Assembly: GCF_009914755.1 (NCBI RefSeq)
Contig: NC_060943.1
Strand: one strand, 5' to 3'
Length of the DNA: 64,000 bases
Source of the DNA: the human T2T-CHM13v2.0 reference genome, Homo sapiens
In this document: positions 2,832-63,000 of the stretch, one piece after another
Layout: the number at the start of each line of letters is the position of its first letter
Position numbering within the stretch: position 1 is the stretch's first letter
The notes under the pieces: generated by a model
What the model saw: only the letters and a program-made list of their open reading frames with translations
What the model was told of the DNA's origin: nothing
Databases searched by the model: none
Made by a program: the position numbers and the translations under genes

Positions 2832-5419
2832 CACAGGCCCTAATTCTTTCATAGACATATATATGTAACAAAAACATACAGATCAAATTACATCTATGGA
2901 AAATTTATGAATGAGTTAAGTGTGTGCAGTGTCTCAGGGGAGCACAATGCAAAAAACCACACAGAAAAAAAAGAAAAGTCTGTTAAATTTACTTGACACA
3001 GCTTTTCCTGCTTCCCATTATAACAGAGTGCCTTTAGAAGTAAATTGCCAACTCCTGGTTTATGTTTTAAAAGAAAGGTAAAATAGTAGCCCATTCATTT
3101 TTATTTACAGCTTTTAGGGGCTTTTCCTGACACTGATTTCCCTCTCTCATGACATAAGTGTTGAAAGAAACCGTGGCATAATTTGGAATGAAAGTTTGAG
3201 TCTGCTGAGACCAAAGAAAAATGTTACAGCAGCAGAGAGACTGCAGTACCACAGAAAGGAAACAGGCATAGCAAGTGATTACTGACTCCTACAAAGTAAC
3301 ATAAGTAAACACTCTTAATTAAGACATAAACACAAAATTTCAGACAACACATATCCTAAGAACATATTTGAGAAATTCCCATAATCATTAGACAAGACAG
3401 TTGTTTTCAAACTATGCCAGGACAAAACTACATTATAAAGACTTTGACAGTTAGCTTTTTTAAATGTCCAAATCTCAATCAAAGATTATAATGTATACAA
3501 AATAGGGCAATATGATGCCACCAAAATATTATAAAATTTTCTGAAAGAAACCATAAAAGAGATGTATACATTAATTTTATGAATTGGTAATGAATAATAC
3601 TCACTGATTAAAATAGGAACAGAGACAACTATGGAAAATCGGAAAAATGAGGATGAGAACAAAAATATTTAAGATTTCAAAAAAGCAGAAATTGTGGAGG
3701 TAAAAATATAAAAACTGATAGATCCTAAAAGTAAGAAAAAATGATGTAAAAATAAAGAAGCTCAACAAACTAGGATCACAGAAAGATATTTATAACAAAC
3801 ACATATATAAGCACAATTTCAAAAGTCACAGACAAAAAAAAAATCTTTGAAGCTGCAAAATAAAAGTGATGTGCCAGGCCAGGCCAGGCATGGTGGCTCA
3901 CACCTGTATTTTAGGCACTTTGGGAGGCCAAGGAGGACAGATCACCTAAGGTCAGGAGTTCAAGGCCAGCCTGGCCAACATGGTGAAACCCCGTCTCTAC
4001 TAAAACTACAAAAATTAGCCAGGTGTGGTGACACATGCCTGTAATCCCAGCTACTTGGGAGGCTAAGGCAGATTATGAGGTCAGGAGTTTGAGATCAGCC
4101 TGACCAACATGGAGAAAACCCCTCTCTACTAAAAATACAAAATTAGCTGTGCATGGTGGCACATGCCTGTAATCCCAGCTACTCAAAGACTGAGGCAGGA
4201 GAATCACTTGAACCCGGAGGCAGTGGTTGTGGTGAGCCGAGATCGCGCCATTGCACTCCAGCCTGGGCAACAAGAGCAAAATTCCATCTCAAGAAAAAAA
4301 AAATGGTAGTTGTTTAATATGTATTAAGATTTAGCTTGCAAGGTAAAAACATTTTAGCAATATGTTGCATGAAAATTTCAAGATGATTAATATGACTAAA
4401 TTAAATATTTATTTTCTGGTAAATTTTGTTTTTTTTTTGACAAGTAAAAATAATAATAACTAAAAGTACAGAGTTATGATAGTTTTAAATTATATTCACA
4501 TTTAAAAGTGTTTCTCCCATAAAAAAATATAGATTCAGAAATAAATAGGATGTTGAAATTATAAGAATTTTATGACTACTCAGCTACACAGGATTAGAAA
4601 ATCACTCACAACAAACCCACACAACAAATATACAAGTTATAAAAAATACAACGATAATATTTATACAGGCAAACAAACATAGAGATAATTCTATTGGAAA
4701 AAGACATATGGCTCAATCATATTTGATGTTGCTCCAGACTGTCTTAAATTGCATAAAGTTAAATATTGACATGCACAATTATTATACTAAAATATCAAAG
4801 CACAATTAACAGATGTGTAGTGGCATACCCTAAAATATATAACACAAAAATATACAATTGCAAAACCAAATTAAAACATGGAATGTAAACTTTATTAGGC
4901 ACCATCAACTAGATTAACATATTCATTAAAAAATCTTAGAAGAAGAATATGGGAAAAAATAATACAGAGATTACTTGAAAATAAAAAAAGGTGAGAAATT
5001 CCCAAATTTTGATGTAATAAAAGAAAAAAAATTCTAACTAAGAATACTTGATTTAAATTTATTTCACTTTAAAAAGAAGATGAAAATAAAAAATTTCCAA
5101 AATAAAAAGTGAGCGTGTTCATCACCACTAGCACAGTTCTACAAAAAAAAAAAAAAATGCTACATGGTGTCCAGGCACCGTGGGCTGATGCCTGTAATCC
5201 TACAGTTTTAGGAGGCAAGCCTGTCAGAACACTAGAAACCAGGAGTTTCAGATCAGCCTGAGTAATGTGAGACTCTGTAAATAACAATAAGAAATGCTGA
5301 AATGAGTCAGTAAAATGAGTCAGTTTTGTTTTAAAAAAATACTGGACAGTATCATAAAACCATATATAAAATAAAGCTCTCTATTAAATGTAAATACACA
5401 GACAAATATAGAAGTCTTT

Positions 5420-6145
5420 TTTTTTTTTTTTAATTGATCATTCTTGGGTGTTTCTCGCAGAGAGGGATTTGGCAGGGTCATAGGACAATAGTGAAGGGAA
5501 GGTCAGCAGATAAACAAGTGAACAAAGGTCTCTGGTTTTCCTAGGCAGAGGACCCTGCGGCCTTCCGCAGTGTTTGTGTCCCTGGGTACTTGAGATTAGG
5601 GAGTAGTGATGACTCTTAACGAGCATGCTGCCTTCAAGCATCTGTTTAACAAAGCACATCTTGCACCGCCCTTAATCCATTTAACCCTGAGTGGACACAG
5701 CACATGTTTCAGAGAGCACAGGGTTGGGGGTAAGGTCATAGATCAACAGCATCCCAAGGCAGAAGAATTTTTCTTAGTACAGAACAAAGTGAAAAGTCTC
5801 CCATGTCTACTTCTTTCTACACAGACACAGCAACCATCCGATTTCTCAATCTTTTCCCCACCTTTCCCCCTCCTCTATTCCACAAAACCACCACTGTCAT
5901 CATGGCCCGTTCTCAATGAGCCGTTGGGTACACCTCCCAGACGGGGTGGTGGCCGGGCAGAGGGGCTCCTCGCTTCCCAGTAGGGGCGGCCGGGCAGAGG
6001 CGCCCCTCACCTCCCGGATGGGGTGGCTGGCCCGGCGGGGGCTGACCCCCCCACCTCCCTCCCAGATGGGGCGGCTGGCCGGGCGGGGGGCTGACCCCCA
6101 TACCTCCCTCCCAGACGGGGCGGCTGGCCTGGCGGGGGGCTGACC
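5420..6145 (-). mobile_element. 5'-truncated SVA (partial VNTR, SINE-R, polyA), younger SVA_D-F-like, sense to ZNF91
   Basis: Poly-T 5417-5431, SINE-R, VNTR units GGGGTCAGCCCCCCGCC. TSD agaagtcttt at 5410-5419 and 6146-6155. GATTGAGAAATCGGATGG variant typical of younger subfamilies as I recall. Confidence 0.95.
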
Positions 6146-8948: not shown

Positions 8949-9860
<912 letters not shown>

Positions 9861-14441: not shown

Positions 14442-14627
<186 letters not shown>

Positions 14628-22199: not shown

Positions 22200-29005
<6,806 letters not shown>

Positions 29006-29544
29006 CTCCCTGGGTAGGGAAGAGTACACTCCAGGTAGAAAGACTGGTTTGTGCTACAGATAGTGGCCCAGGTGGGGCTGTACTCTGATTTATTTCTGGG
29101 TCCATGCAGGCAGATGAGTTTATAAACAGGTGGTCCAGAACCCCAGGCTGGTGGACAAAACAGCCTGCTGCTGCAGATTCAGTGTCTGGAGGTGGGAATA
29201 TGCCAGAAGACTTGGAGATACTTCTGTAAGTTTTTGGCAAAAAAAAAAAAAAAACACTAGGATCAAAAATGCTGTAGTAAAATTCCTGAGTGTGGTTCCC
29301 TGTCCTGGGAGAGGTGTGGACACATTAATGTCTAGTGGGTATGTTAGTGAGTGGGTGAAAATCTTGTGGTGGTGGCTGTGGCAAAAGGGGATCTGCCATC
29401 AGAGCTCCTTTCCTCTAAGTTTTAGGTCCTCTGTCACCCTGGAAGGGGAGCTGGAATCACAGAACAAGGGACAGTGTGACAGCCTGTGTAGAGTGCACAG
29501 CCTCTCATTCCTGGACACCCAGAGGTTTATACTAATCCAGGAGT

Positions 29545-32230: not shown

Positions 32231-34084
32231 TCAAAAAAAAAAAAAAAAAGAAAAAAAAATAGTCACATGGGAACACTTCTAGGAGGTATCAAGTTTCATC
32301 ACATAAAATTTAGCATTAAACTCAAAAATCAAAATACCAGGATATAGAACCAGGCACGACAGCTCACATCTGTAATCCCAGCACTTTGGGAAGCTAAGGT
32401 GGAAAAATCATGAGGGCAGGAATTTGAGAGCATCCTGGGCCACATGGTGAAACCCCATCTCTACTAAAAATACAAAAATTAGCTGGGAGTGGTGGTGCAC
32501 GTCTGTAATCCCAGCTACTGGGGAGCTGAGACAGGAGAATTCCTTGAATGTTTGAATCCAGGAGGCAGAGGTTGCAGTGAGCTGAGATCACACCATTGCA
32601 TACCAGCCTGGGCGACAGAGCAAGATTTCGACTCATAAATAAGACAAAAAAAAACCCTTAGGTCAAAATAAGTGAACAAAGCTTTTCAAGATACAGATAT
32701 GTCTTCCTCATGTGTCAAGTCAGGCCATTCAATTACTTGAGAGATTGTCCCATCCCATCCTGCTCACTTAAGTGCTCAATAACCCCCTCTCAGGAGACTC
32801 TGAACTATGCCCCAGTGAGTGCCTCAGGCACATTATACTCTGCAAGTTCTTACGCCATCTAACTGGGGTCAGTTTTTTGGTTTTTTGGGTTTTTTTTTGT
32901 TTTTTGTCTTTTGGAGTGCTGGGTATTTTTTTTCTAGAAATTTTTTTACTATTTTTCTTGCACTATTTTTCTGCCCCCTAAAGGAATCCAGGAGGCAGAA
33001 ATTATTTGTTTTCTCCTCAATACTAGTATCTGATTGGCTGGCCAGCAATGTGTCTCCAAGAAATGAAAGCTGAATTGGGTGAAGGCAATATTAATGTCTC
33101 AAGGAATTAACTTTAAAAAAAAGTGCACCAGGAAATGCCTCTCAGCCTCAGGGCATCCACGTCCACACTTGAGAAGCTAAACTCAATACCTCAGGTTGTC
33201 CTATGAGAGAATATGACCCAGAAGCTGATATTCACTAGACACTCTAGCACACATAGCCATGGTGGGTATCTTGGTTTATCCCCATACAGTACTGAAATCT
33301 AGGTCCAAGAAAAAACTGAAGGGTGACTGAAGACACATCACCCTATACAGTTTCCAAAAGGAAAACCTGACCCAAAAACATTCTGGTAAGATAGCTGCGT
33401 CTAGGGAAAATAGACGAAAAAAACGCACAGAGATATTTTACCATACAGTGTCAGGAGATTATTCTTTGCTTTCTTCTCACAGGGAGTATTTACCAAAAAA
33501 AACAAATCTTTTTAAATGTGCCATCAAATGCTTTGTCAAAAAAAAAATTAATTGGCCAGATGCGGTGGCTCACGTCTGTAATCCCAGCTCTTTGGGAGGC
33601 CGAAGTGGGCAGACCAGCTGAGGCCAGGAGTTCGAGACCAGCCTGGCCAACATAGTGAAACCCTGTCTGTACTAAAAATACAAAAATTAGCCAGACGTGG
33701 TCGTGGGCACCTGTAAGTCCAGCTACTTGGGAGACTGAGAGAGGAGAATCATTTGAGCCCAGTAGGCGGAGGTTGTAGTGAGCCTAGTGCGTCACTGCAC
33801 TCCAGCCTGGGTGACAGAGCAAGGCTCTGTCTCAAAAATTAAAAATAAAAATGATTAAAATCGGTATCAAAATGTACACTACAGGACAAATAGTTGATAA
33901 AGTGAATTAGGGAGGGGAAATTGGCATTTGGGAATGTCAGACGAAACTGGAAATTTAGTATTTTACTGCAAGCCAGAGTTAGGCTGGAGGAACAGGGGAT
34001 GAGGGGTGGACTTGAGGCCCTGCTTGAGACACATGTAAAAAATTCAGGGAAAAATCGTCCCCTTTTGAGTGTGAGAAAAATTAA

Positions 34085-34739
<655 letters not shown>

Positions 34740-34740
<1 letters not shown>

Positions 34741-35530
34741 CTTTTCGCGGTGACGCCCATAAATTTTTAATAGAAAAAAAGAGGCCCTGGGAACCCCACG
34801 GACTAAAGTGCTTCCTATTCATGAGCCAGCACCTCCAGTCAGGATTCTCCCCTGACGACCCTCCCGTGATCCCTGCACAATCTGGGAGAGACGCGGCGCT
34901 GCGGGAGCAGAGCTGCCCAGAGAGGGCTCCAGGCCAGGACACAGTCACTGGGCAGGGAAGAGACAGGACGCCCGGAGCCCGCCTGTCAACGCAGCCGCCA
35001 TCTTATCGCTGAAGGGGACTGAGGCCGAGCTGGGCAAGGAGAACCCGGGCACGGATTGTGGAGCTGACTGAAGGAAGGCCTGAGGCTCGCCACAGCCGCA
35101 TCCCACCGGTTTCAACGAGCCCCGTTCCCTCTCTCGGGACGTCGCACCTGGCAGTCTCACCATTTCTAGGCTTCCAGGGGTTCCTGGCATCTTAGCTGTG
35201 GCTCTCCAATACCTGCAGGTCACAGGGCCACACAGGCTGGGCCTCCTGGAGCAGAGGACACAGAGCAGTGAAGTCGAGACCTGGAAACTCCGGCGGCAGC
35301 GAGAGACAAAGGCCCAGCCACATCCCGGAAGCCGCCCTGTCCGCTCCAGCTTTGTGCCTGATTGGACAGTTCCCAGCCCAGCGTCCCTGATTAGATAACG
35401 TTTAAGGCCCCGCCTTCTCAGGCCCTGAGTGACAGAAGATGTGATCAGACACTGGGCTGAATGAAGAAAGAGTGACAGCGTAGGCTGCAGCCTTTTCAGG
35501 CAGGGCTTCCTCAGCTCAGCCAGGCCCACC
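34740..35530 (-). promoter_or_regulatory. ZNF91: ZNF91 CpG-rich promoter, 5'UTR and start of intron 1
   Basis: CpG-rich relative to flanks. ETS-like CCGGAAG 35325-35331, CCAAT on minus strand 35361-35365, GC box ~35408, YY1 consensus AAGATGGCGGC on minus strand 34994-35004. TSS probably ~35300-35345 (not determinable exactly). Confidence 0.85.
35161..35190 (-). CDS. ZNF91: ZNF91 exon 1 coding part (MPGTPGSLEM), 30 nt, phase 0
   Basis: acagctaag ATG CCA GGA ACC CCT GGA AGC CTA GAA ATG|gtgaga; joins KRAB-A in frame. Confidence 0.95.
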
Positions 35531-38419: not shown

Positions 38420-39100
38420 ATTATTACTTCCAAAGTTTTTAAGGTACAGGTGATGTTTGGTCACATGGATAAGTTCTTTTGTAATCATTTCTAAGATTTA
38501 GGTGCACCCATCTCCCAAGCAGTGTGCACTGTACCCAATATGTAGTCTTTTATCCCTCACCCCTCTCTCCCGCCCTTTCTGCTGAGTACCCAGAGTCCAT
38601 TACATAATTCTTATGCCTTCGCATTCTCATAGCTTAGTTCCCACTTATAAGTGAGAACATACAATGCTTGGTTTTTTATTGCTGAGTTACTTAGAATAAT
38701 GGTCTCCAACTAAATCGAGATTGCTGCAAATGCTATTATTTTATTCCTCGTTAGGGCTGAGTAGTATGCATTGGTATATATATGCCACATTTTCTTTTTC
38801 CACTCATTAGCTGATGGGCATTAGGCTGCTTCCATATTTTTGCAATTGCAAATTGTGCTGCTATAAACATGTGTGTGCAAGTGTCTTACACATATAATTT
38901 CTTTTTCTTCATGTAGATACACAGTAGTAGAATTGCTTAATCAAATGGTAGCTTTACTTTTATTTAATGAATCTCCATACTGTTTTTCATAGTGGTTGTA
39001 CTAGTTTACATACCCACCAGCAGTGAAAAAGTATTCTTTTTTCACCACAGCCACGCCAACATGTATTATTTTTTGATGTTTTAATCATGGCCGGTTTTGC
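38420..39100 (-). mobile_element. L1 3' end fragment
   Basis: Reverse L1 3'UTR (cccacttataagtgagaacat...tatatgccacatttt). Confidence 0.8.
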
Positions 39101-39107
39101 AGGAATA

Positions 39108-39415
39108 TATTGGTTTGGTTCAGAAAGGCGGGACAACTCAAAGCGGGCGGCTTCCAGGTAAATTTAAATATTTTGTGGTTGACAAGTGGTGGAATCTGAA
39201 GACCTGGGATCAATGAAAGGGAAGGTTTAGGTTAAGGTAAAGGATTGTGGAGACCAAGTTTTATTGTACAGAGGAATCTCTCAGATAGGTGAATTAAAAG
39301 AGAGAGCAGTTTGTAAAATGTTTATTAGACCTAAACGGGTGCCTGGCTCTTAGTTGATTATCTCCTGGATCTGCAAAGAAAAAAAGGAAAACAAAAGGGG
39401 AAGGGGATTCTCTAC
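39108..39415 (-). mobile_element. MER4-family LTR fragment
   Basis: ggttcagaaaggcgggacaactc...ggggattctctaca resembles recalled MER4A reverse strand. Confidence 0.55.
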
Positions 39416-39417
39416 AA

Positions 39418-48190
<8,773 letters not shown>

Positions 48191-48328
48191 ACCAGGCCGG
48201 GCACAGTGGCTCCCGCCTGTAATCCCAGCACTTTGGGAGGCCGAGGCGGGCGGATCACCGGAGGTCGGGAGTTTAGACCAGCCTGACCAACATGGAAAAA
48301 CCCCGTCTCTGCTAAAAATACAAAATTA

Positions 48329-48472
<144 letters not shown>

Positions 48473-50104
48473 TCAAAAAAAAAAAAAAAAAAAAAAAAAA
48501 ATGACCAGACCAGGCACAGTGGCTCATGCCTGTAATCCCAGCAGTTTGGGAGGCCAAGGCGGGAGAATATCTGGAGCCTAGGATTTTGAGACTATCCTGG
48601 GGGCCACATGGTGAGACAACACCTATATTAAAAAATAATAATTACAGTTAAAAAAAAATATATATATATATGACCAGCGCCTGAAAAACATAGCAAGAAC
48701 ACATCTCTACTGAAAAAAAAAAAAAAACATAGATGATTGATTGGTAGACAGAGAGACACACAGATAGACAGATAGATAGATATAGATAGAACCAGTCATG
48801 GTGGCTCACGCCTGTAAGCTCAGTAATTTGAGAGGTCTAGGCCAGCACATCGTCTGGCTGCAGGAGTTTGAGATCAGCCTGGAAAACATGATGGGACCCT
48901 ATCTCTACAAAAATAAAAAGTAAAATATACAAAATAAAGCGCCAGTGTGGTGGCGCATGCCTTTAGTCCCAGCTACTGGGAAGTGGGGTGTCTGAGACGG
49001 GAGGATCACCTGAGCCCAGGGAGGTCGAGGCTGCAGTGAGCTGTGATCATGCACCTGCACTTTAGCCTGGGTGAAAGAAATCTAAAACAACAGCAACTTC
49101 AGTGTACGGGAAGGAGCAAGAGAGACAAAGAGAAAAAAAGAAAAAAACAACAGAACTCAATGTACTGTGAAAACAAACTCAAAGTGGTGCTAAAAAAAAA
49201 AAAGGAAAAGAAAAAGAAACAGAAAGATCCTGAGAGCCCCAGCTATTTGGGAGGCCAAAATAAGAGGATCAACTGGATGAGCCTAGGAAGGTAAAGAGTG
49301 CAGTGAGCCATCATTGAACTCCTCTGCTGGACCGAAGCTGTACTGTCCCGGTGAGAGCCATCTGGTCCACCGTAAACATTTCCAGCTGGCAACCAAGTCC
49401 TACGCTCGTGGCCCACATCCTGTACACCTGGCAGCCAGAAAGAGAAGCCAGCTGGTGGTGGAGGCAGAAGCAGAAGCCCACTGTGTCTACCGTACAGGCC
49501 ACATGTGGCACTCGCGGCCTGAAGCTGTCCCTGTTGGAACCTTATTTCCCCCAAGGCGGCCCACCTCCGCAGCCAGCCTCTAAGTCTGCCGACCTTCCTT
49601 CCTAAGCTTTGAATCCCTGGTCCACCCAAACGAGAGGCCAGCAGCCACAACTACTGGCCACAGCTCGCCACCCACATCTGGTCACCCGGTGGCCAGACCG
49701 AGAAGCCAACGTGTCCACCCTGCAGGCCATGTGTGGCGCTCGCCCCTGAAAACGTCCCTCTGGCGTCTAAGTCTGTGAGCTTCCCATCACTCCCTGGGTG
49801 ACAGAGTGAGACTCCATCTCGGAAAAAAAAAAAAAAAAAAAAAAAGATGATGGGGAAGAAGGGAGGGAGGGAGGGAGGGAGGAAGAGAGGAAAAGGAAGA
49901 ATGAAAAGGAAAAACAAGAAGAAAATAAAAGAGGACAGAGCATGGTGGCTCAAACCTGTAATCTCAACACTTTGGGAAGCTGAAATGGGAGAATTGCTTG
50001 AGCACAGAATTTTGACACCAGCCCTGGGAACACAAAGCAGAAGGAAAGGAGGAAGGAGAGAAGAAAGAAAGGTAGGAAGGAAGGAAAAATAAAACCAAAA
50101 AAGT

Positions 50105-50284
50105 TCAGGGAACATCACTCGCACTGATGATCAAAGGTCAGTTCCTGGTCAATAAAAGTAAACAAGCCTGTTTAAGATAAATTCCCCTATACTCTGTTGT
50201 ACCTACTCCTTGCCCTCTGCCTCAGGGTTATAAAGCAGCTGCCTTCAGCTATTCTCCCAGGAGGCTTTGCAAAACCTTCTGACT
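50105..50284 (-). mobile_element. Second LTR22-like fragment, inverted, fused to an Alu right arm
   Basis: Reverse complement of ~43405-43590. Confidence 0.75.
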
Positions 50285-51267
50285 AGAAATACAAAAATTA
50301 GGTGGGTGTTGATGAGCCTGCTTGTAGTCCCAACTACTAGGGAGGCTGTGGCAGGAGAATGGCTTGAATCTGAGAGACTGAGGTTGCAGTGAGCCGAGAT
50401 CATGCCACTGTACTACAGTGTGAGTAACAGAATGAGACCCTGGCTCAAAAAAAAAAAAAAATAAAATAAAAATAAATAAATAAATAACTTCTTACCTAAA
50501 TCTAGATTCATCATATTTTACAAAATCTAGAAACAACCTCAGAACAATAACAACTCCATTCCCAGAAAGAGCCTCCCAACCCCACCTTTGTGCCAATCCC
50601 AACTGCATCTGCCTGTGGATTTCAAGGTTTTCAAGGCTCTGTGGCTTCTCTAAGTATAAAGGCTCTGTCCATGGCTATTGTGAGCAGGCCAGGACATCTG
50701 CAGGGGAGGCTCCTCAGGCAGAAGAGCTGCTTTTTCAATGATCTCCCTTTGCAGGCAAAACTATCCTTAGCTTGCAGTCACTGAGTTCAGGCTTCTACTT
50801 CCCAGTCAGGATTATTCACTTAGTTTGAAATAAGAAAATGACCAATGTATGGCCAGACATGATGGCTCACGCCTGTAATTGCAGCACTTTGGAAGGCTGA
50901 GGCAGGTGGATCACTTGAGGTCAGGAGTTCGAGACCAGCCTGGCAAACATGGTGAAACCCTATCTCTACTAAAAACACAAAAATTAGCCGGGCGTGGTGG
51001 CATGCGCCTGTAATCCCAGCTATTCAGAAGGCTGAGGCACGAGATTCCCTTAAACCTGGGAGGCTCCCTTAAACCTGGGAGGCGCAGGTTGCAGTGAGCC
51101 AAGATCGTGCCACTGCACTCCAGCCTGGGTAACAGAGTGAGACTCAGTCTCAAAAATAAATAAATAATAATAATTAAAAAAATGACCAATGTTTCAAAAA
51201 AGTGCAAAATCACTCCAACACACTGTTTATAGAATAGTGTAAGGAAATTGTAAGACTTAAATTTTCA

Positions 51268-51620
<353 letters not shown>

Positions 51621-52819
51621 TTAACTATTTCCATGATAGATAATTTAATAAACAATCATATGTGAACATTTCTAGAAGATGTCAAGTTCCATCTCATAAA
51701 ATTTAGCATTAAACTTGGACATCTAGACAACAGAATACAGAACAGAGATTATCCACTGTTACAAATTCTAGACACCACAAAAAAGAGGAGCTGATGGTTT
51801 GAGAAATATATACAATGCACCAATTAATCTATCACATTTGCTTGTGGAAATATATTCACTTTGTATAGCCATAATGAAAAAAAGATTTTTCCTATTTCTT
51901 TTCTCTGGTAGCATTCCCAAAGCAAAGCCTGGGGTTCTATTTAAAATCATGCAACCAGGAAAAGCAGACATGAGAAACTTACTACACTCACTCTGGAGAA
52001 GATAAAGGTAAATAAGAATCTTTAATACATAAAATATATGAGTAGATTTTTCTGAAATATACCTTTCATAGTCTGACTTTTTAAACATCTTTTAAACTCT
52101 TCTGATAAAATATAAGTTACAGTTATTAAAAAACTGAAATAGAAATGTGAAAAAATCTTTCCAAGGTAAAAAACTCAGGAAGAGGCACATGCCACAATGC
52201 CTGACTAATGTTTTTGTATTTTTAGTAGAGACGGGGTTTCACCATGTTGGCCAAGCTGGAAATAATTTTTTACTCTGCGGCCAGGTGTGGTGGCTCATGC
52301 CTGTAATTCCAGCTACTTGGGAGGCTGAGGTGAGAGAATCGCTTAAAGGCGGAGGGAGGCTGAGGTGAGAGAATCGCTGGGAGGCAGAGGTTGCAGTGAG
52401 CCGAGACTGCACCACTGCACTTTAGCCTGGGCAACAGAGAAAGACTGTCTCAAAAAAAAAGCATACTCTGCACTAGCAGCATTAACACAAAAAGTTCTAG
52501 TAAACCCTGACACCCACTCAAATGTCACATCCTCTATAAAGCCCTCCTTGATTTTCCCAGTGCTATGTCACTGGCAGAATTGATCACTATTACCATTTAG
52601 CTCCTCAATACTTTATAAGTCTTTTTATGTACAAGGGTTATTCTCTCCAGAATAAATTAATCATTTACACACCTATCCATGCTAATGAACTATAAACTCC
52701 TATGGGGCAGGTATGTTGAACCCTGTTCATCTGTGTAATCCAAATGTCTGATACTTAATAGGTGTCATATACACATAAAATCAAAATGCTGTCAGGGAAT
52801 TATTGGAAAAGCTACCAAA

Positions 52820-53760
<941 letters not shown>

Positions 53761-55379
53761 GAAAAAATAATTTTAATTTTCTAAAAGGTTAGCTTTCTAA
53801 GACAAATGGTATGCGAGGAAATTTCCACAGGCCTAAGCCATCCAGCTGCTCTTCTGAGAGGCTACACTCTTCCTCCTCAGGCTGTCCTCTAAGAGATGAC
53901 CCAGGGGATGATATTCATTAGACACTCCAAGAGATATGGCCACTGTGGGCATCTTGGGTTATCCCTGACGGTTCTGAAAATCATGAACAAGAAAAGACCG
54001 GAGGGCTGCCACAAAGGGCCCTGGAATTTCTCCAAAGCAAAACTTCAACCGAAAGACCTACTAACAAGGTGTATGCACCAGGGAAGATAAAAGGACAGTC
54101 ACAGAGATTTTTTTTCTTTTTAACAGTGGAGTTCCAGAGGATTATTTTCTCACGTAACATGTTTACAGACTTCGGAGGTTGAGGCGGGTGGATCACCTGA
54201 GGTCAAGAATTCAAGAGCAGCCTGGCCAACATGAGGAAACCCTGTCTCTCCTAAAAATACAAAAATTAGCCGGGCATGGTGGTGGGAGCCTGTAATCCCA
54301 GCTACTTGGGAGGCTGAGGCATGAGAATCGCTTGAATCTGGGAGGCGGGGATTGCACTGCACTCCAGCCTGGGCAACAAGAGTGAAACTCCATCTCCAAA
54401 AAAAAAAAGAAAAAAAAAATTGTATACAGACAACAATTATTTTAAAACCTGCCATCCACTGCTGTGTAAGAACATGATTAATAATAAAAACACTGTGTTT
54501 GAAATGTAAAATAAAGGACAAATAGTTGATAGTGTTGTAAATTGGAGAGAGGAAGTTGTTCTCATTTCCACTTTTGAGAATGTAGGAACAAAGGTGGAAA
54601 TTTATAATTTTACTACAAGCCTGAGTTAAGCTAGGGTAAAAGGGTAGTGGATTAGAAGTCCTGCTTGCCATACATTAGGAAGTCACAGAGGAAAACCAGT
54701 CCTCCTGTGGAGTGTTATTTAAAAAGCAGGAAATTAGACTGAAGGGGCTCTAGTGCCCTGTGTTCATAAGTAAAAAATGTAAAACCTATCTCGGATTCAC
54801 TTCTTATAAATTATTTTAGGCAGAAACAAAATTCAGGCTTAACCTGCAATTAACCTCTGATTACATAACCAGGAAATTTCCACCCGAATCATACAAATAA
54901 GGTGACTACATAAACTGTAACCAATTCTTGAATTTGGTTTGCCTTCTCACACGCCCTTTTCAAAACCCTTCCCTTTTTGCCTTTCAGGTGGCCCACATAT
55001 TATGGCTGGGTGCTTTCCATTTCACTAATCACTGCTCAGATAAACTCGTTAACGTTTTAACGTTGACTCCCTTTACTTTGCAAGAGAAGAAGCTGGGCGC
55101 GGTGGCTCATGCTTGTAATCTTAGCACTTTGGGAGGCCGCGGCGGTGGGGGGATCACTTGAGTCCAGGGGTTCCAGACCAGCTTCCACCATGGCGAAACC
55201 ACTTCTCTACTAGAAATACAAAAATCAGCCAGGCGTGGTGGTGCAGGTCTTTAATCCCAGCTTTTCGGGGGGCTTAGGCACGAGAATCGCTTGAACCTGG
55301 GAGGCGGAGGTTGCAGTGATCACGCCATTGCACTCCAGCCTCGGCGACAGAGCAAGACTTTGTCTCAAACAAACCAACA

Positions 55380-55990
55380 AAATGTTTAACAAAAGAGACT
55401 GGGAGCCCCACCGGCCACAGCTCCTCCTACGCACACACGAGTCGGGATTCTGCCCTGATGACCCGCCTGGCATCCCTGAACAATCTGGGAAACACTCGGG
55501 GCTGCGTGCAGAGCTGCCCAGGGAGCTCCAGATAGGGCGCCGCAGGGACTGGGCGGGACGCGCGGGTCATTGCTGCGGGCCCAGCCACCATCTTGCGGCC
55601 AGAGGGACCTGGGACGGAGCTGCGCCAGCAGGGACTCAGGTCGGCAACCCAGGAGCGGTGAGGAGGCCAGTCCCGTCGGTTTCTCAGCCAGCTCTCCCCT
55701 CTCGGGATGCTCAACCCCTCACACTCACCCTTTCCCACCTTCTGGAATGTCCTGGCATCTTAGCTGTCTGTGCACGTCCCAGGACCTGCAGATCACAGGG
55801 CAACAGCCTGTCACCGGCTGGGGCGAGAGGGGGGCAGAGGTGGAGGACGTTGAATAGCAGAAAGCGATCCCAAGCTCTGGCTGCAGCGAGAGACAAAAGC
55901 CCCGCCAAATGCCGGATGCCACGCCCTCCTCTCCAACTGTGCCACTGATTCGATAAAGCACCAGCACTCGCCCAGTACCACTCCCTCCAC
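55380..55990 (-). promoter_or_regulatory. Orphan KZNF-type CpG promoter paralogous to the ZNF91 promoter
   Basis: Collinear homology to 34780-35400, e.g. gcagcgagagacaaa, gacctgcag.tcacaggg, gagctgcccag.gag and a YY1-like GCCACCATCTT. Confidence 0.85.
55729..55900 (-). ncRNA. LINC01224: First exon of a KZNF-promoter-derived transcript, probably lncRNA LINC01224 (downstream exons not resolved)
   Basis: acagctaagATG CCA GGA CAT TCC AGA AGG TGG GAA AGG|gtgagt (55758-55729). I found no KRAB or finger exons between here and ZNF91. Position and strand ~20 kb upstream of ZNF91 fit my recollection of LINC01224. Confidence 0.6.
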
Positions 55991-56175
55991 CCCCAGGAAA
56001 ACAGGCTAAAGCAGGGAGTGTCAACCATAGGGAATTACAGCCAATTAAGAAGTAAGCTGAGACTTGAAATGAACTTGCTCTTTCCCTTACCTGGGTCTGC
56101 TTGTATAATGCATCTTATTTGCTACTTAAGGGTAAGAAAAGAACATTTGGATTATTTTTGTTTGTTTGAGACTGA

Positions 56176-56475
<300 letters not shown>

Positions 56476-58438: not shown

Positions 58439-60079
58439 CTCCCTCTCCCTCTCCCCCTCCCCCTCCCCCTCCCCCCCATCCCTCTCCCCACGGTCTCCCT
58501 CTCCCTCTCTTTCCACGGTCTCCCTCTGATGCCGAGCCGAAGCTGGACTGTACTGCCGCCATCTCTGCTCACTGCAACCTCCCTGCCTGATTCTCCTGCC
58601 TCAGCCTGCCGACTGCCTGCGATTGCAGGTGCGCGCTGCCACACCTGACTGGTTTTCGTATTTTTTTGGTGGAGACGGAGTTTCACTGTGTTGGCCGGGC
58701 TGGTCTCCAGCTCCTAATCAGGAGTGATCCGCCAGCCTCGGCCTCCCGAGGTGCCGGGATTGTAGACGGAGTCTCGTTCACTCAGTGCTCAATGTTGCCC
58801 AGGCTGGAGTGCAGTGGCGTGATCTCGGCTGGCTACAACCTCCACCTCCCAGCCGCCTGCCTTGGCCTCCCAAAATGCCGAGATTGCAGCCTCTGCCCGG
58901 CCGCCACCCCGTCTGGGAAGTGAGGAGCATCTCTGCCTGGCTGCCCATGGTCTGGGATGTGAGGAGCCCCTCTGCCCGGCTACCCAGTCTGGGAAGTGAG
59001 GAGCACCTCTTCCCGGCACCATCCCATCTAGGAAGTGAGGAGCGTCTCTTCCCGGGCGCCGATCGTCTGAGATGTGGGGAGCGCCTCTGCCCCGCCGCCC
59101 CGTCTGGGATGTGAGGAGCGCCTCTGCCCGGCCGCGACCCCGTCTGGGAGGTGAGGAGCGTTTCTGCCCGGCCGCCCCGTCTGAGAAGTGAGGAGCCCCT
59201 CTGCCTGGCAGCCACCCCGTCTGAGAAGTGAGGAGCCCCTCCGCCCGGCAGCCGCCCCATCTGGGAAGTGAGGATCGTCTCCGCCCGGCAGCTGCCCCGT
59301 CCAGGAGGTGGGGGGCAGCCCCCGCCCGGCCAGCCGCCCCGTCCCGGAGGGAGGTGGGGGCCAGCCCCCGCCCGGCCAGCCGCCCCGACCCGGAGGGAGG
59401 TGGGGGCCAGCCCCTGCCCGGCCAGCCGCCCCGTCCGGGAGGGAGGTGGGGGGCTCCTCTGCCCGGCCGCCGCCCCGTCCAGGAGGTGGGGGGCGCCTCT
59501 GCCCGGCCACCCCTTCTGGGAAGTGAGGAGCCCCTCTGCCCGGCCGCCACCCCATCTGGGGAGGTGTACCCAACAGCTCATTGAGAACGGGCCATGATGA
59601 CGACGGCAGTTGTGTTGAATAGAAAAGGGAGAAAAGGGGGAAATGTGGGGAAAAGATAGAGAAATCAGATTGTTGCTGTGTCTGTGTAGAAAGAAGTACA
59701 CATAGGAGACTCCATTTTGTTCTGTACTAAGAAAAATTCTTCTGCCTTGGGATGCTGTTGACCTTACCCCCAACCTGGTGCTCTCTGAAACATGTGCTGT
59801 GTCCACTCAGGGTTAAATGGATTAAGGGCGGTGCAAGATGCGCTTTGTTAAACAGATGCTTGAAGGCAGCATGCTCGTTAAGAGTCATCACCATTCCCTA
59901 ATCTCAAGTACCCAGGGACACAAACACTGTGGAAGGCCCCAGGGTCCTCTGCCTAGGAAATCCAGAGACCTTTGCTCACTTGTTTATCTGCTGACCTTCC
60001 CTCCACTATTGTCCTATGACCCTGCCAAATCCCCCTCTGTGAGAAACACCCAAGAATGATCAATAACAAAAAAAAGAAA
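58439..60079 (+). mobile_element. Full-length SVA (SVA_B/C-like)
   Basis: (CCCTCT)n-like hexamer head, antisense Alu-like domain, VNTR ~58890-59560, SINE-R, A-tail; 12-bp TSD aaaaatgttatt at 58427-58438 and 60080-60091. Confidence 0.97.
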
Positions 60080-63000
60080 AAAAATGTTATTATATTAAGC
60101 CCTCTTCCTTCTAATAAAGTCTATACAAATACACACATACAAGCCTGAAACTACTCTAAATAAAATATCAGGTTTTTAAAATCCCATAAAGAAACAAGCA
60201 AACACAAAATCAGCCACTTTGATTGAGGAGAGAGTGGGATGGAGGGGGTTAGGAGGCTGCCCGTATCACCTCCGGGCGGCATGTGGAGGAGCAGATGGAG
60301 TCTAGGAAGACCCTGGGGAGTCACTTGTTCTGACTGGGCTTTCTCCTAGCTCGACACTTTGCTAACCATTTCCTGGGAAGAGCTTAGGAAACTCCTGTGC
60401 TCTAGTGAGGCAGAGCCTCCCCTCACAGGGTATTGGCAAGGAGGCATTCTGAGACTGTGATTGAGAAGCTAGCACAGTGCTTGACAAGTACCTGTGGGAA
60501 CTGTCATCCTCTGTAACTATCATGTGGCCTTGGAGTGTTCAGATGGCCTGGCCTGGCCTGGGGCTTGGTGGAGATGTTTGAGGGTCAGCTGCTTTAGGCT
60601 CCCACTTTCTCCTCAATCAAAGTGGCTGTTTTTGTGTCTCTTTATTTATGGAATTTAAAAACCTGATATATAAATAGAAAGTGCAGCTGGAGGTGCCGAG
60701 GCTCAGTGTCTAGAACTGTGCTGCTTGGGCTTGCTTGCTGGCCTGTGGCCAGGTGAACTCTGGGTGTGAGGTGCTTCCCACCCTGGATCTACGATCCCCA
60801 CTACCTCTCCCAGGCCCTGAGTAACCAACACAAGGCGGTGCTAAAGAGCCGGTGAGTGACAGCCATGAAGCCCATCAAGGAAGATTTGAATGCTATCTGG
60901 GCTAGGGCTGTCAGGGGTAGGAACTATGGTGGCCTTGTCTTATCATGGCCCCACCCACAGATGTGACTGCCTGTGCTGCTTCTCCAGCAGCCAGCTGTCT
61001 GTGGCCCTGAGCCTGTCGTACCATGCCTGCTTCCTCATGCTGTTCATGTTTAAAAAAAAAAAAATCTGAGATGGCGCTGCTGGATGTGAGTGCTGGAAAT
61101 GGGGCGCCACCTTTGTCCTAGGGAATTAGGAGCTGACCAGATACCTCCTGAGTGCCCCCTATAACAAGTGGGGAGTGGTGTTGCACTAAATGATGTCCCC
61201 CCTCCTCCCACCACCGAAGATGTGTTTGTATTGGTTCAATGAATATACAATGCAGAGACCTAAATGAAGACACATGAATGGGTGTATGTGGACATCAGCT
61301 TGCAGCTGGGAAACAGGTGCCTCTCATTCTCCCCAGCAAGTGTGGAAGGTGTCCATGCCCATGAGTGTATAGATCTGGCCTTTTTCTTAATTTGTTCACA
61401 ACCCCAGGTCTGTTCTGAGTGAATGATGTGCAGATGAGATTTCTCAGGTCATTGGTATGTTTGACCTTGTGGCTGCTGCTTTTGCTGCCACTACCCCCAA
61501 GCCCAACCTGGCTTAAAGTCCAGGCTTTAGGTCAAAAAGACGGAGGGCTTCCTGTGTTCTGGGATGGGAAGTTCTCGATCTGTGGTAGGACTGGGTGTTG
61601 GGGTACACTTTAGTTTCGTGTAGGATGTGAGCTGCAGTGGTTTTATTAATTGTGATTGCCCTGGCCTGGTTGTAGCTCCGGGTGGGGAGAAGGAATCAAC
61701 AGTGGTGTTTCCCCAGATATCCATGTGCCCAGCCCTGGCCTTCCTGCCCTCAGACCCAGAAGTAAGCACCACCACAGACTCTGACTTGCCTCCCTACTCC
61801 CCATACCCCAGATGGGAATACCTTGAAGGCTACAATCTGGAAGTATTATTCTCCTCATTTTAACCAGACCCACATAAACACACAGTGTGGGAGTGAGGGT
61901 AGGATGGGTTGGGGACCTGGGGAGAACCAGAGTGGAATCATAAATCCTTGGGAAAAGTTAAAGATACAGAAGTGGTGGTAACCTCTCCATGAAGCCCAGC
62001 TCCCTACCTGATTTTTGCCACACAGTCCCTCCTACAGACACTGTAGGGTGGCTCTGGGGGTTGTTGGGGATCCCTATAGGCCTGGGCTGCTCTCTGTCCC
62101 CACCTGCCTGTGCTCCTTCTCTCTTTTGTTGTTGTTGTTGTTGTTTGTTTGTTTTGTTTTGTTTTTCAGATGGCAGTTTCATTCTTGTTGCCCAGGCTGG
62201 AGTGCAATGGCACGATTTTGACTCACTGCAACTTCTACCTCCTCGGTTCAAATGATTCTCCTGCCTCAGCCTCCTGAGTAGCTGGGATTACAGGTGCACA
62301 CCACCACACATGGCTAATTTTTGTATTTTTAGTAGAGAAGGGTTTTCGCCATGTTGACCAGCCTCATCTCAAACTCCTGACTTCAGGTGATCCGCCTGCC
62401 TCAGCTTCCCAAAATGCTGAGATTACAGCTGTGAGCCACCACACCCGGCCCCTGTGCTCCTTCTCTTTGCCTGCTGTCAGGGCCCTAACGTGGAGAAGGA
62501 GGCAGGTCCTCAGCCTCAGGTATAGCTGAATGTCTTTTGGAGTGTTTGAAGCATGCTTTATGTCTTAGAAATTCTAAAAAGTAAAACGAATTCCAATTGT
62601 AATGTCTGTTAGTTTTCCTGAGCCAACTGGAAGAAAAGGATTTTTCACCTGAAATTTTTAAATGACACCCAAGGATAGCCACCAGTGTCTTGGCCATGGA
62701 AACCTCCTATGTGCTTCCCACCCCTGGTTTGATTTGCAACCTCATGATTGTGTTGCCCTGAACATACTTTCCTCTGGTGAATATGGTTCACATGGTTAAC
62801 ACCACTTCATGAGAGGGGGGCATCATGTAGAGATGAGAATGGATTGTCTTTAGTTACCATTGTGCCTCTTTGTCACCTGAGAGGCTCACTTTTCCTGGCT
62901 GATTCCATAAGTGTGTTAGTGTTGTCAGACACCTCTGGACAACTCAAATGACAAGGGGCTGTTGTTTTATAAAGGAAACAAAGGCTTTGGATGTGAAATC

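What the first reader, a model, noticed from the sequence alone, without database searches (positions are those of the whole stretch)
55729..55758. Orphan upstream first exon is splice-compatible with ZNF91: hidden alternative promoter?
Seen: a second KZNF exon 1 with the same start context (acagctaagATG), the same 30-nt phase-0 coding length (MPGHSRRWER vs MPGTPGSLEM) and a strong AGG|gtgagt donor. It lies on the same strand 20.5 kb upstream and has no KRAB/finger exons of its own that I could find. Inference: splicing 55729 to 14600 would give full-length ZNF91 with a new N-terminus, so the presumed lncRNA promoter may double as a second ZNF91 promoter. Its transcription could also interfere with the main promoter.
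Basis: partly seen in the sequence, partly recalled or inferred. Interest (0 to 1): 0.8.

Follow-up and report, generated by a model that had tools for sequence, protein, structure and literature searches.

The report
Relic zinc-finger first exon drives LINC01224
The first exon of the non-coding RNA gene LINC01224 is the surviving promoter and start exon of a dead zinc-finger gene next to ZNF91, so it could in principle splice into ZNF91, but nothing seen here shows that it does.

Summary
Window 55758-55729 (minus strand) reads ATG plus 9 codons (MPGHSRRWER), followed by a GTGAGT donor. It shares the acagctaagATGccagga context and the 30-nt phase-0 length with ZNF91 exon 1. Joining it in silico to ZNF91 exon 2 leaves the frame open.

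It is not a chance match and not a close copy of ZNF91 exon 1. It belongs to a second, older first-exon type ("M-type", usual leader MPGHPGSWEM).
- All 8 M-type copies found on chr19 lie 16-58 kb upstream, on the same strand, of a ZNF91-type first exon.
- Old retrocopies show M-type exon 1 spliced to a different KRAB-A subtype (KLLTF...). Decayed genomic KRAB exons of that subtype survive behind the M exon at 24.18 Mb, upstream of the unit I take to be ZNF254.

The exon is therefore a fossil of a dead neighbouring zinc-finger gene, copied along with its live neighbour and now serving as the LINC01224 start site. Its splice compatibility is inherited.

Use as a ZNF91 promoter is unshown: none of 14 RefSeq ZNF91 transcripts starts there, and the leader shows no constraint. 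Published data argue for positive coupling, not interference. Ordinary origin, open regulatory question.

The parts
55910..56060 (-). M-type KZNF core promoter, now the LINC01224 promoter. It has a CCAAT-like box changed to CGAAT (55952..55948) and an ETS-like TTCCGG changed to ATCCGG (55918..55912). It lies inside the RefSeq 'enhancer' 55534-56189.
   Evidence: Aligned with 11 paralogous copies and ZNF91. Eight of the 11 paralogues (and ZNF91) show CCAATCA; 6 of the 11 (and ZNF91) show TTCCGG. The motif names are recalled, not tested. Mean pairwise identity among the 7 chr19 copies is 73%. CpG observed/expected is 0.50 at 61% GC, against 0.52 at 61% for the ZNF91 promoter.
55729..55909 (-). 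LINC01224 exon 1 (NR_126448.1), an M-type KZNF first exon: 151 nt of 5' UTR plus a 30-nt relic coding leader.
   Evidence: Coordinates come from the hub annotation; sequence. It is 81% identical over 243 nt to the copy at C19:23408.6k.
55729..55758 (-). Relic start codon and leader (MPGHSRRWER). This is the only ATG in exon 1, with A at -3.
   Evidence: The usual leader in the family is MPGHPGSWEM. The last codon is AGG here, where the copies at 21.99 Mb and 23.71 Mb (L005, L007), the non-chr19 genomic copies and ZNF91 have ATG.
55723..55728 (-). 5' splice site GTGAGT, preceded by AGG.
   Evidence: Six of the 7 chr19 copies keep GTGAGT.
53374..56466 (.). Duplication block holding the M exon and its flanks.
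   Evidence: 85.0% identity over 3217 aligned columns with C19:23406498-23409672, which lies upstream of the next KZNF unit. It is part of one collinear chain that runs from the finger exon to beyond the M exon.
45094..45171 (-). LINC01224 exon 2, the annotated acceptor for the relic donor. The ORF that opens at the relic ATG stops at this exon's last codon (TAG|gt), giving 35 codons.
   Evidence: The acceptor and donor are kept at 95% and 91% local identity in the paralogous unit I take to be ZNF254.
39069..40883 (-). LINC01224 last exon, with an ATTAAA signal at 39085..39080, 16 nt before the annotated end. The target of the published shRNA is at 39109-39129.
35161..35307 (-). ZNF91 exon 1 (Z-type first exon, leader MPGTPGSLEM). 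It is the distant paralogue of the M exon.
   Evidence: Z-type copies: 40 scored hits at 80-87% identity, 34 on chr19 and 6 on chr7.
14474..14600 (-). ZNF91 exon 2 (KRAB-A), the hypothetical acceptor of the 55729 donor. The implied intron is 14601-55728, or 41,128 nt.
   Evidence: The acceptor reads tgtgtgtttttcag|GGA.

Best explanation
LINC01224 exon 1 and its promoter are what survives of the 5' end of a dead KRAB zinc-finger (KZNF) gene of a type I call M-type.

How it arose (inferred from the calls cited under evidence):
1. An ancestral M-type gene lay just upstream of a ZNF91-type (Z-type) gene.
2. The M-type gene had this first exon, with the leader MPGHPGSWEM, spliced in phase 0 to a KRAB-A exon of the 'KLLTFRD...EEWKYL' subtype.
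3. Its coding body decayed, but its CpG-rich promoter and first exon survived.
4. The whole M-plus-Z unit was then copied repeatedly across 19p12.

What it does now in the ZNF91 unit. The relic promoter still fires. Its consensus donor is captured by local non-coding acceptors, which gives the spliced lncRNA LINC01224. The relic ATG opens only a 35-codon ORF.

Why it is splice-compatible. The phase and 30-nt length match ZNF91 exon 2 because both first-exon types descend from one ancestral KZNF first exon. The match is not a sign of selection for a second ZNF91 promoter.

From the literature only, not tested here: the element behaves as a promoter with enhancer-like positive coupling to ZNF91.
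For: Shown here:
1. The exon's closest relatives are not ZNF91 exon 1. Seven fuller copies and one partial copy on chr19 are 78-83% identical, whereas ZNF91's own exon 1 region gives only two short hits of 81% and 77% over fewer than 100 nt.
2. All 8 of 8 chr19 M-type copies have a Z-type first-exon hit 16-58 kb downstream on the same strand. A KRAB-A hit follows 6-24 kb further on in all 8. Three intervals were fetched whole and one more (the ZNF254-like unit) as far as the Z exon; three rest on hit lists alone.
3. The ZNF91 unit is collinear with the neighbouring unit (Z exon at 23.385 Mb) from the finger exon to beyond the M exon. The M block is 85.0% identical and the Z promoter block 84.7%. 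It is likewise collinear with the units I take to be ZNF254 and ZNF730. So M and Z were copied together, while M against Z is only about 65-77% identical.
4. Three retrocopies carry an M-type exon 1 that ends exactly at the donor. In L040 it joins KRAB-A directly. In L039 it joins after 270 nt. In L041 it joins a non-KRAB exon instead.
5. The KRAB-A in L040 and L039 is of the KLLTF subtype. A genomic pseudo-KRAB-A (with a stop codon) and pseudo-KRAB-B of that subtype lie 11-12 kb behind the M exon of the ZNF254-like unit. That pseudo-KRAB-A is 79.5-80.2% identical to the retrocopy KRAB-A, against 72-76% to the Z-type KRAB-A exons. It carries intron flanks, so it is genomic and not a retrocopy.
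6. The window has no KRAB or finger remnant behind its M exon.
7. LINC01224 splice sites (exon 2 acceptor and donor, exon 3 and 5 donors, exon 6 acceptor) are conserved at 86-95% local identity in the ZNF254-like unit.
8. CpG content equals that of the active ZNF91 promoter.

From the supplied annotation: a curated LINC01224 transcript starts at 55909, and RefSeq places enhancers at 54876-56189.

From papers (passages read): LINC01224 knock-down lowers ZNF91 and a 3C contact (PMC8286114). Shared eQTL and Hi-C links are reported at the locus (PMC13579776).
Against: - Pairwise identity of the 30-nt leader among the 7 chr19 copies (85%) and of the donor (95%) is somewhat above the flanking intron (81%). 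This could hint at constraint on a coding or splicing use. The sample is tiny, and high identity continues past the donor into the intron.
- The pseudo-KRAB exons exist in only one of the four units whose M-to-Z interval I fetched. They could be a later insertion there rather than an ancestral remnant.
- Names of the paralogous genes (ZNF724, ZNF730, ZNF254), wherever they appear in this report, rest on recall plus position. ZNF725P is the exception: it is in the annotation table.
- I had no annotation outside the window, so I could not see whether M exons are annotated first exons of the downstream genes in other units.
- Present-day promoter activity and enhancer coupling come from the annotation and two papers, not from any test here.
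Confidence: 0.78

Rival explanations
1. One reading: the LINC01224 promoter doubles as a distal alternative promoter of ZNF91. Pol II reads through the LINC01224 poly(A) site and the ZNF91 promoter. The 55729 donor then joins ZNF91 exon 2 at 14600, giving full-length ZNF91 that starts MPGHSRRWER.
For: - The frame is open and the donor is consensus.
- The LINC01224 poly(A) signal is the weaker ATTAAA variant, and the gap to the ZNF91 start site is only 3.7 kb.
- M-type first exons did splice to KRAB-A exons in real mRNAs.
- The M-upstream-of-Z layout is kept in 8 of 8 chr19 copies, and 6 of 7 keep GTGAGT.
- Variants in LINC01224 intron 1 are ZNF91 eQTLs in cortex, and risk alleles raise expression of the locus genes (PMC13579776, passages).
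Against: - None of the 14 RefSeq ZNF91 transcripts in the supplied table starts upstream of 35334.
- Five annotated acceptors lie nearer, and 13 poly(A) hexamers lie on the strand between 39100 and 35335.
- The leader is diverged: 5 of 30 nt against the consensus read by eye, four changes altering the residue, with the terminal ATG lost. There is no excess conservation.
- The CCAAT-like and ETS-like boxes are altered.
- The retrocopy of a ZNF91-like mRNA carries the Z-type exon 1 (L042).
- The retrocopied M-type mRNAs carry the M gene's own KLLTF KRAB, not a Z-type KRAB.
- The shRNA that lowers ZNF91 targets LINC01224's last exon, which would be intronic in such a chimera.
- No paper reporting the junction was found.
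Confidence: 0.12
2. Transcriptional interference: LINC01224 transcription running into the ZNF91 promoter lowers ZNF91 output.
For: The two genes are tandem on the same strand, 3.7 kb separates the LINC01224 3' end from the ZNF91 start site, and the poly(A) signal is weak.
Against: The published effects go the other way. LINC01224 and ZNF91 rise together, and LINC01224 knock-down lowers ZNF91 mRNA and protein (PMC8286114, passages). Risk alleles are associated with increased expression of the locus genes rather than opposite effects (PMC13579776, passage).
Confidence: 0.05
3. The relic ATG is still translated. LINC01224 then yields a 35-residue peptide (MPGHSRRWER plus 25 residues), or translation makes the RNA a target of nonsense-mediated decay, which would tune its level.
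For: It is the first and only ATG in exon 1, with A at -3. The ORF ends at the last codon of exon 2, with four exon junctions downstream.
Against: The ORF continues into non-homologous sequence, and no family member shares its downstream part. No ribosome-profiling or peptide evidence was seen: one search was mis-specified and found nothing relevant. PMC8286114 reports the RNA as mainly nuclear (passage).
Confidence: 0.1
4. Chance resemblance: a GC-rich stretch that happens to contain an ATG and a GT 30 nt apart.
For: An open run of 10 codons is by itself uninformative; about two thirds of random 9-codon runs lack a stop (my arithmetic).
Against: Homology is collinear over about 1.5 kb with E values down to 2e-19 inside the window and down to 6e-170 in the genome.
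Confidence: 0.01

Closest known systems
lncRNAs that are fossils of protein-coding genes (Hezroni et al., Genome Biol 2017, PMC5577775; search listing and start of the abstract seen)
   Same: A transcribed lncRNA locus keeps recognisable pieces of a former coding gene, here the promoter, 5' UTR, start codon and first donor, while the coding body is gone.
   Different: That study concerns conserved lncRNAs derived from genes lost in mammals. This case is a young, primate-type tandem paralogue in a KZNF cluster. The fossil was re-copied at least 8 times together with its live neighbour.
Canonical four-exon KZNF gene layout of the ZNF91 family: exon 1 with 5' UTR and start, then KRAB-A, KRAB-B and a finger exon (layout seen directly for ZNF91 in the window; family history recalled)
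   Same: The first-exon anatomy is identical: a shared TSS-proximal motif (TTTGTCTCTCGCT), the cagctaagATG context, a 30-nt phase-0 leader and a GTGAG donor.
   Different: No KRAB or finger exons follow within the unit. The donor is used by non-coding exons.
Conjoined or read-through genes and distal alternative promoters (general concept, recalled)
   Same: Tandem same-strand neighbours with a frame-compatible upstream donor and downstream acceptor.
   Different: No read-through transcript is annotated in the supplied table, and none was found in print.
lncRNA promoters acting as enhancers of neighbouring genes; LINC01224 described as an 'eRNA' of ZNF91 (PMC8286114, passages read)
   Same: Same element, 21 kb upstream of ZNF91, with positive coupling and a 3C contact reported. 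RefSeq marks it as an enhancer.
   Different: The paper does not note that the 'enhancer' is a paralogous KZNF promoter and first exon. Its evidence comes from one shRNA in one cell model, and I could not test it.

Membership tests
KZNF first exon (ZNF91-family type) | Sequence homology of promoter, 5' UTR and proximal intron 1 to first exons of KZNF genes | tested here: met
   Collinear homology to ZNF91 exon 1. Identity of 78-83% to seven other chr19 copies.
KZNF first exon (ZNF91-family type) | Start codon in the shared context, 30-nt leader, phase-0 GT donor | tested here: met
KZNF first exon (ZNF91-family type) | Spliced to a KRAB-A exon of the same gene | tested here: not met
   No KRAB or finger remnant lies between 36 kb and 55.7 kb. 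The annotated splice partner is a non-coding exon at 45171. For the exon type in general the feature is met in retrocopies.
Alternative promoter / first exon of ZNF91 | Upstream, same strand, active start site | tested here: inconclusive
   Position and strand are confirmed. Start-site activity rests on the supplied annotation (NR_126448.1) and on CpG retention, not on expression data.
Alternative promoter / first exon of ZNF91 | Reading-frame compatibility with ZNF91 exon 2 | tested here: met
Alternative promoter / first exon of ZNF91 | Observed transcripts joining 55729 to 14600 | not testable with these tools
   No RNA data were available. None of the 14 RefSeq ZNF91 transcripts in the supplied table does so. 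No report was found in print; supplementary tables were not searched.
lncRNA derived from a pseudogenised coding gene | Homology to coding-gene exons plus loss of the coding body, with the transcript annotated as non-coding | tested here: met
   together with the hub annotation of LINC01224.
Enhancer-like promoter (eRNA locus) of ZNF91 | Physical contact with the target promoter and a positive effect on it | not testable with these tools
   Literature only: PMC8286114 (3C and shRNA) and PMC13579776 (Hi-C and eQTL). I showed only that the shRNA maps to the last exon.

The most novel reading that the evidence does not exclude
The M-upstream-of-Z layout kept at all 8 chr19 copies is a working two-promoter architecture, not a passenger. 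In particular tissues (germline, hESC, cerebellum), the relic M promoters would feed transcripts into the downstream KZNF genes. LINC01224 exon 1 joined to ZNF91 exon 2 would then give a ZNF91 with the MPGHSRRWER N-terminus. The vertigo and bilateral-vestibulopathy risk variants that act as LINC01224 eQTLs would change ZNF91 dosage through this route.
Probability: 0.1. Interest if true: 0.6.

Novelty: new member of a known kind. Interest (0 to 1): 0.35.

Why it matters
ZNF91 represses SVA and L1 retrotransposons (recalled, and stated in PMC13579776). The ZNF91/LINC01224 locus is a replicated association signal for vertigo and bilateral vestibulopathy, and most linked variants there are LINC01224 eQTLs (PMC13579776 passages; PMC11341872 and PMC8497462 from the search listing only).

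Knowing that the so-called enhancer and lncRNA start site is a fossil KZNF promoter gives a concrete set of mechanisms to separate: DNA element, lncRNA, or read-through chimera. It also names a specific junction to look for.

It further shows that several 19p12 KZNF genes carry the same upstream relic, so any mechanism found at ZNF91 may apply to them as well. If the junction is never used, the finding is an ordinary by-product of tandem duplication.

Tried and rejected
- Own KRAB or finger exons behind the orphan exon: none found by tblastn or blastn.
- LINC01224 exons 2-3 as decayed KRAB exons: rejected. The three-frame translations show nothing KRAB-like, and the only tblastn trace is a 6-residue match with E 8.4.
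- The unit at 21.99 Mb as a gene that uses the M exon as its only first exon: rejected. A Z-type exon 1 lies between that M exon and its KRAB-A.
- Selection test on the leader: inconclusive. It covers 30 nt and 7 copies, and high identity extends into the intron.
- Protein database search with the retrocopy reading frame, to find real proteins with the M leader: it returned only the retrocopy's own ORF (1 hit among 2 candidates). That database does not seem to hold annotated primate proteins, so this is not evidence of absence.
As a result, the intervals behind the M copies at 23.90, 23.71 and 21.61 Mb were never fetched. Their Z-type and KRAB-A partners rest on hit lists, which score only 40 of 165 and 40 of 176 candidates.
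- Literature: one search was mis-specified and useless. Searches for LINC01224 with ZNF91, for ZNF91 with 'alternative promoter', for KRAB/pseudogene/lncRNA/19p12, and for LINC01224 with 'exon' found no paper on the exon's origin or on a chimeric transcript. Supplementary tables were not examined and could hold junction lists.

Full report
**What is at the site.** On the minus strand, window 55758-55729 reads ATGCCAGGACATTCCAGAAGGTGGGAAAGG (MPGHSRRWER), and gtgagt follows it. ZNF91 exon 1 ends with ATG...ATG (MPGTPGSLEM), followed by gtgaga. Both leaders are 30 nt and phase 0, and both share acagctaagATGccagga. The supplied annotation makes 55729-55909 the first exon of LINC01224 (NR_126448.1). 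Joining 55729 to ZNF91 exon 2 at 14600 in a script keeps the frame open: [23 protein letters not shown].... tblastn with ZNF91's KRAB-A, KRAB-B and finger peptides finds no credible match outside ZNF91's own exons.

**It is homology, not chance.** The two first-exon regions align collinearly over about 1.5 kb:
- 54502-54884 with 33870-34260, 68%
- 55440-55531 with 34837-34932, 81%, E 2e-19
- 55872-55953 with 35285-35366, 77%

GC content and CpG observed/expected are the same at both promoters: 61% and 0.50 against 61% and 0.52. CpG retention is what one expects of a promoter that stays unmethylated in the germline. This is an inference.

**The exon belongs to a different first-exon type from ZNF91's.** The window's assembly is held, so I searched it.
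- The LINC01224 exon 1 region has seven fuller relatives and one partial relative on chr19 at 78-83% identity. There are weaker copies on the acrocentric chromosomes, chr7 and chr12 at 71-73%. ZNF91's own exon 1 appears only as two short fragments.
- I call these copies M-type. Their usual leader is ATGCCAGGACATCCTGGAAGCTGGGAAATG|GTGAGT, or MPGHPGSWEM.
- ZNF91's exon 1 type (Z-type) gave 40 scored hits at 80-87% identity, 34 on chr19 and 6 on chr7, out of 165 candidates.
- LINC01224's leader differs from the M consensus, which I read by eye from the copies aligned, at 5 of 30 positions. Four of these change the residue. They include the terminal ATG, which is AGG here.

**A recurrent two-exon layout.** I combined the M hits, the Z hits, the KRAB-A hits and the fetched DNA. 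Every one of the 8 chr19 M copies has a Z-type first exon 16-58 kb downstream on the same strand, followed by a KRAB-A exon. Gene names below are recalled from position and leader sequence, except ZNF725P, which is in the supplied table.

| M copy (T2T chr19, strand) | M-to-Z distance | Probable downstream gene |
|---|---|---|
| 23,553.4k (-) | 20.6 kb | ZNF91 |
| 23,408.6k (-) | 23.9 kb | ZNF724 |
| 23,903.4k (+) | 27.9 kb | not named |
| 21,613.3k (+), partial copy | 30.7 kb | not named |
| 23,210.4k (+) | 41.7 kb | ZNF730 |
| 24,181.0k (+) | 56.2 kb | ZNF254 |
| 23,709.2k (-) | 57.5 kb | ZNF725P |
| 21,990.1k (-) | 15.9 kb | not named |

- For the copies at 23.90, 23.71 and 21.61 Mb the interval was not fetched, so the partner is simply the nearest listed hit.
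- The ZNF91 unit is collinear with the unit whose Z exon is at 23.385 Mb, all the way from the finger exon past the M exon. The M block is 85.0% identical over 3.2 kb and the Z promoter block 84.7%.
- The ZNF91 unit is also collinear with the ZNF254-like and ZNF730-like units.
- M and Z were therefore duplicated together. The M/Z split is older, at about 65-77% identity.

**What the M exon originally belonged to.** Hits that stop exactly at the donor turned out to be processed retrocopies.
- L040 (chr15:25.64 Mb) has an M-type exon 1 joined directly to KRAB-A and KRAB-B. It reads MPGHPESWEMKLFTFRNVAIEFSLDEWKY....
- L039 (chr4:10.24 Mb) has an M-type exon 1, then 270 nt, then KRAB-A and KRAB-B.
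- L041 (chr15:69.86 Mb) has an M-type exon 1 joined to an exon that matches, at 91%, sequence 3.2 kb behind the M exon of the ZNF254-like unit.
- The KRAB-A in L040 and L039 is a distinct 'KLLTFRD...EEWKYL' subtype.
- In the ZNF254-like unit, a genomic pseudo-KRAB-A with an in-frame stop and a pseudo-KRAB-B lie 11-12 kb behind the M exon. They are of that same subtype: 79.5-80.2% identical to the retrocopy KRAB-A, against 72-76% to the Z-type KRAB-A exons. They have homologous intron flanks.
- No counterpart exists behind the M exon in the ZNF91 unit or in the ZNF724-like and ZNF730-like units.
- A retrocopy of a ZNF91-like mRNA (L042, chr9:35.17 Mb) carries the Z-type exon 1.

The simplest reading is that the M exon was the first exon of a separate KZNF gene that has since died. 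Its 5' end has been carried along with each copy of the neighbouring live gene.

**What the relic does now.**
- Its AGG|GTGAGT donor is annotated as splicing to 45171.
- The relic ATG is the only ATG in exon 1. It opens a 35-codon ORF that stops at the last codon of exon 2, with four junctions downstream.
- The LINC01224 exon 2 acceptor and donor, the exon 3 and 5 donors and the exon 6 acceptor are conserved at 86-95% local identity in the ZNF254-like unit. The lncRNA splicing pattern is therefore older than the split between those two units.
- The poly(A) signal is ATTAAA. Thirteen poly(A) hexamers lie on the strand in the 3.7 kb before the ZNF91 start site.

**Is it a hidden ZNF91 promoter?**

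Points for:
- inherited frame compatibility;
- a consensus donor;
- a weak terminator;
- the conserved M-before-Z layout;
- 6 of 7 copies keeping GTGAGT;
- pairwise identity of 85% in the leader against 81% in the adjoining intron;
- ZNF91 eQTLs that lie in LINC01224 intron 1 (PMC13579776, passages).

Points against:
- None of the 14 RefSeq ZNF91 transcripts starts beyond 35334 (supplied table).
- Five nearer acceptors compete for the donor.
- LINC01224's own leader is among the most diverged: 79% identity to the other copies, no better than its flanks.
- Its CCAAT-like and ETS-like boxes are altered (motif names recalled).
- The retrocopied M-type mRNAs carry the M gene's own KRAB subtype.
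- The shRNA that lowers ZNF91 in PMC8286114 maps to 39109-39129, in LINC01224's last exon. That position would be intronic in the proposed chimera.

I found no paper that reports the junction or the exon's origin. Supplements were not searched. I could not query RNA-seq junctions, and that remains the decisive test.

**Interference.** Both papers point to positive coupling. LINC01224 knock-down lowers ZNF91 mRNA, protein and a 3C contact (PMC8286114). Risk alleles go with increased expression of the locus genes (PMC13579776). This argues against promoter occlusion as the main effect.

**Verdict.** The best-supported account is a fossil KZNF promoter and first exon that now serves as the LINC01224 start site and, according to the literature, as an enhancer-like element for ZNF91 (confidence about 0.78). 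I put meaningful use as a second ZNF91 promoter at about 0.1-0.12. Occasional read-through junction reads would not surprise me. The kind of thing, a lncRNA born from a dead coding gene in a tandemly duplicated cluster, is already known. What is new here is the specific identification for LINC01224 and the 8-of-8 recurrent layout. Interest is moderate, because the locus carries replicated vertigo and vestibulopathy associations.

Noticed in passing
L027-L032, i.e. C19:24192461-24192568 and 24193808-24193891 (+): Genomic pseudo-KRAB-A (in-frame stop) and pseudo-KRAB-B of a 'KLLTF' subtype, 11-12 kb behind the M-type exon upstream of the probable ZNF254. No finger exon was found in the 60 kb fetched.
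   Followed up: yes
L042, C9:35167800-35168900 (-): Processed pseudogene of a ZNF91-family mRNA. Z-type exon 1, KRAB-A (97% to ZNF91 exon 2), KRAB-B and the start of the finger exon are joined without introns.
   Followed up: partly
One search hit list: C13, C14, C15, C21 and C22 short-arm regions; C4:193420044-193420221; C10:134602661-134602838: Ten M-type first-exon copies at 72-73% identity lie on the five acrocentric chromosomes, two on each. Two 71% promoter and 5' UTR fragments lie near the ends of chr4q and chr10q.
   Followed up: no
window 45094-55758 (-): The relic ATG opens a 35-codon ORF in spliced LINC01224. Its stop is the last codon of exon 2 (TAG|gt), and four exon junctions lie downstream, so the RNA would be a nonsense-mediated-decay substrate if translated.
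   Followed up: partly
window 5417-6138, 9166-9858, 59365-60081: Three copies of a roughly 700-bp element at 89-93% identity. Two form an inverted pair 3 kb apart inside ZNF91 intron 3. A 93% copy also sits just after KRAB-A of the unit at 23.27 Mb.
   Followed up: no
window 40659-42189 and 42615-44891: Internal direct duplication (66-68% identity) inside the LINC01224 gene body. Also, 43410-43588 is an inverted 90% copy of 50104-50282 and supplies the 28-nt exon 4.
   Followed up: no
window 26146-26297 and 28211-28362: A 152-bp direct repeat at 95% identity in ZNF91 intron 1.
   Followed up: no
window 29064-29185 (-) and C19:24184626-24184742 (+): A sequence used as a second exon in the retrocopy L041 has homologues both in ZNF91 intron 1 (75%) and 3.2 kb behind the M exon of the ZNF254-like unit (91%). 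This suggests an old alternative 5' exon shared by both first-exon types.
   Followed up: partly
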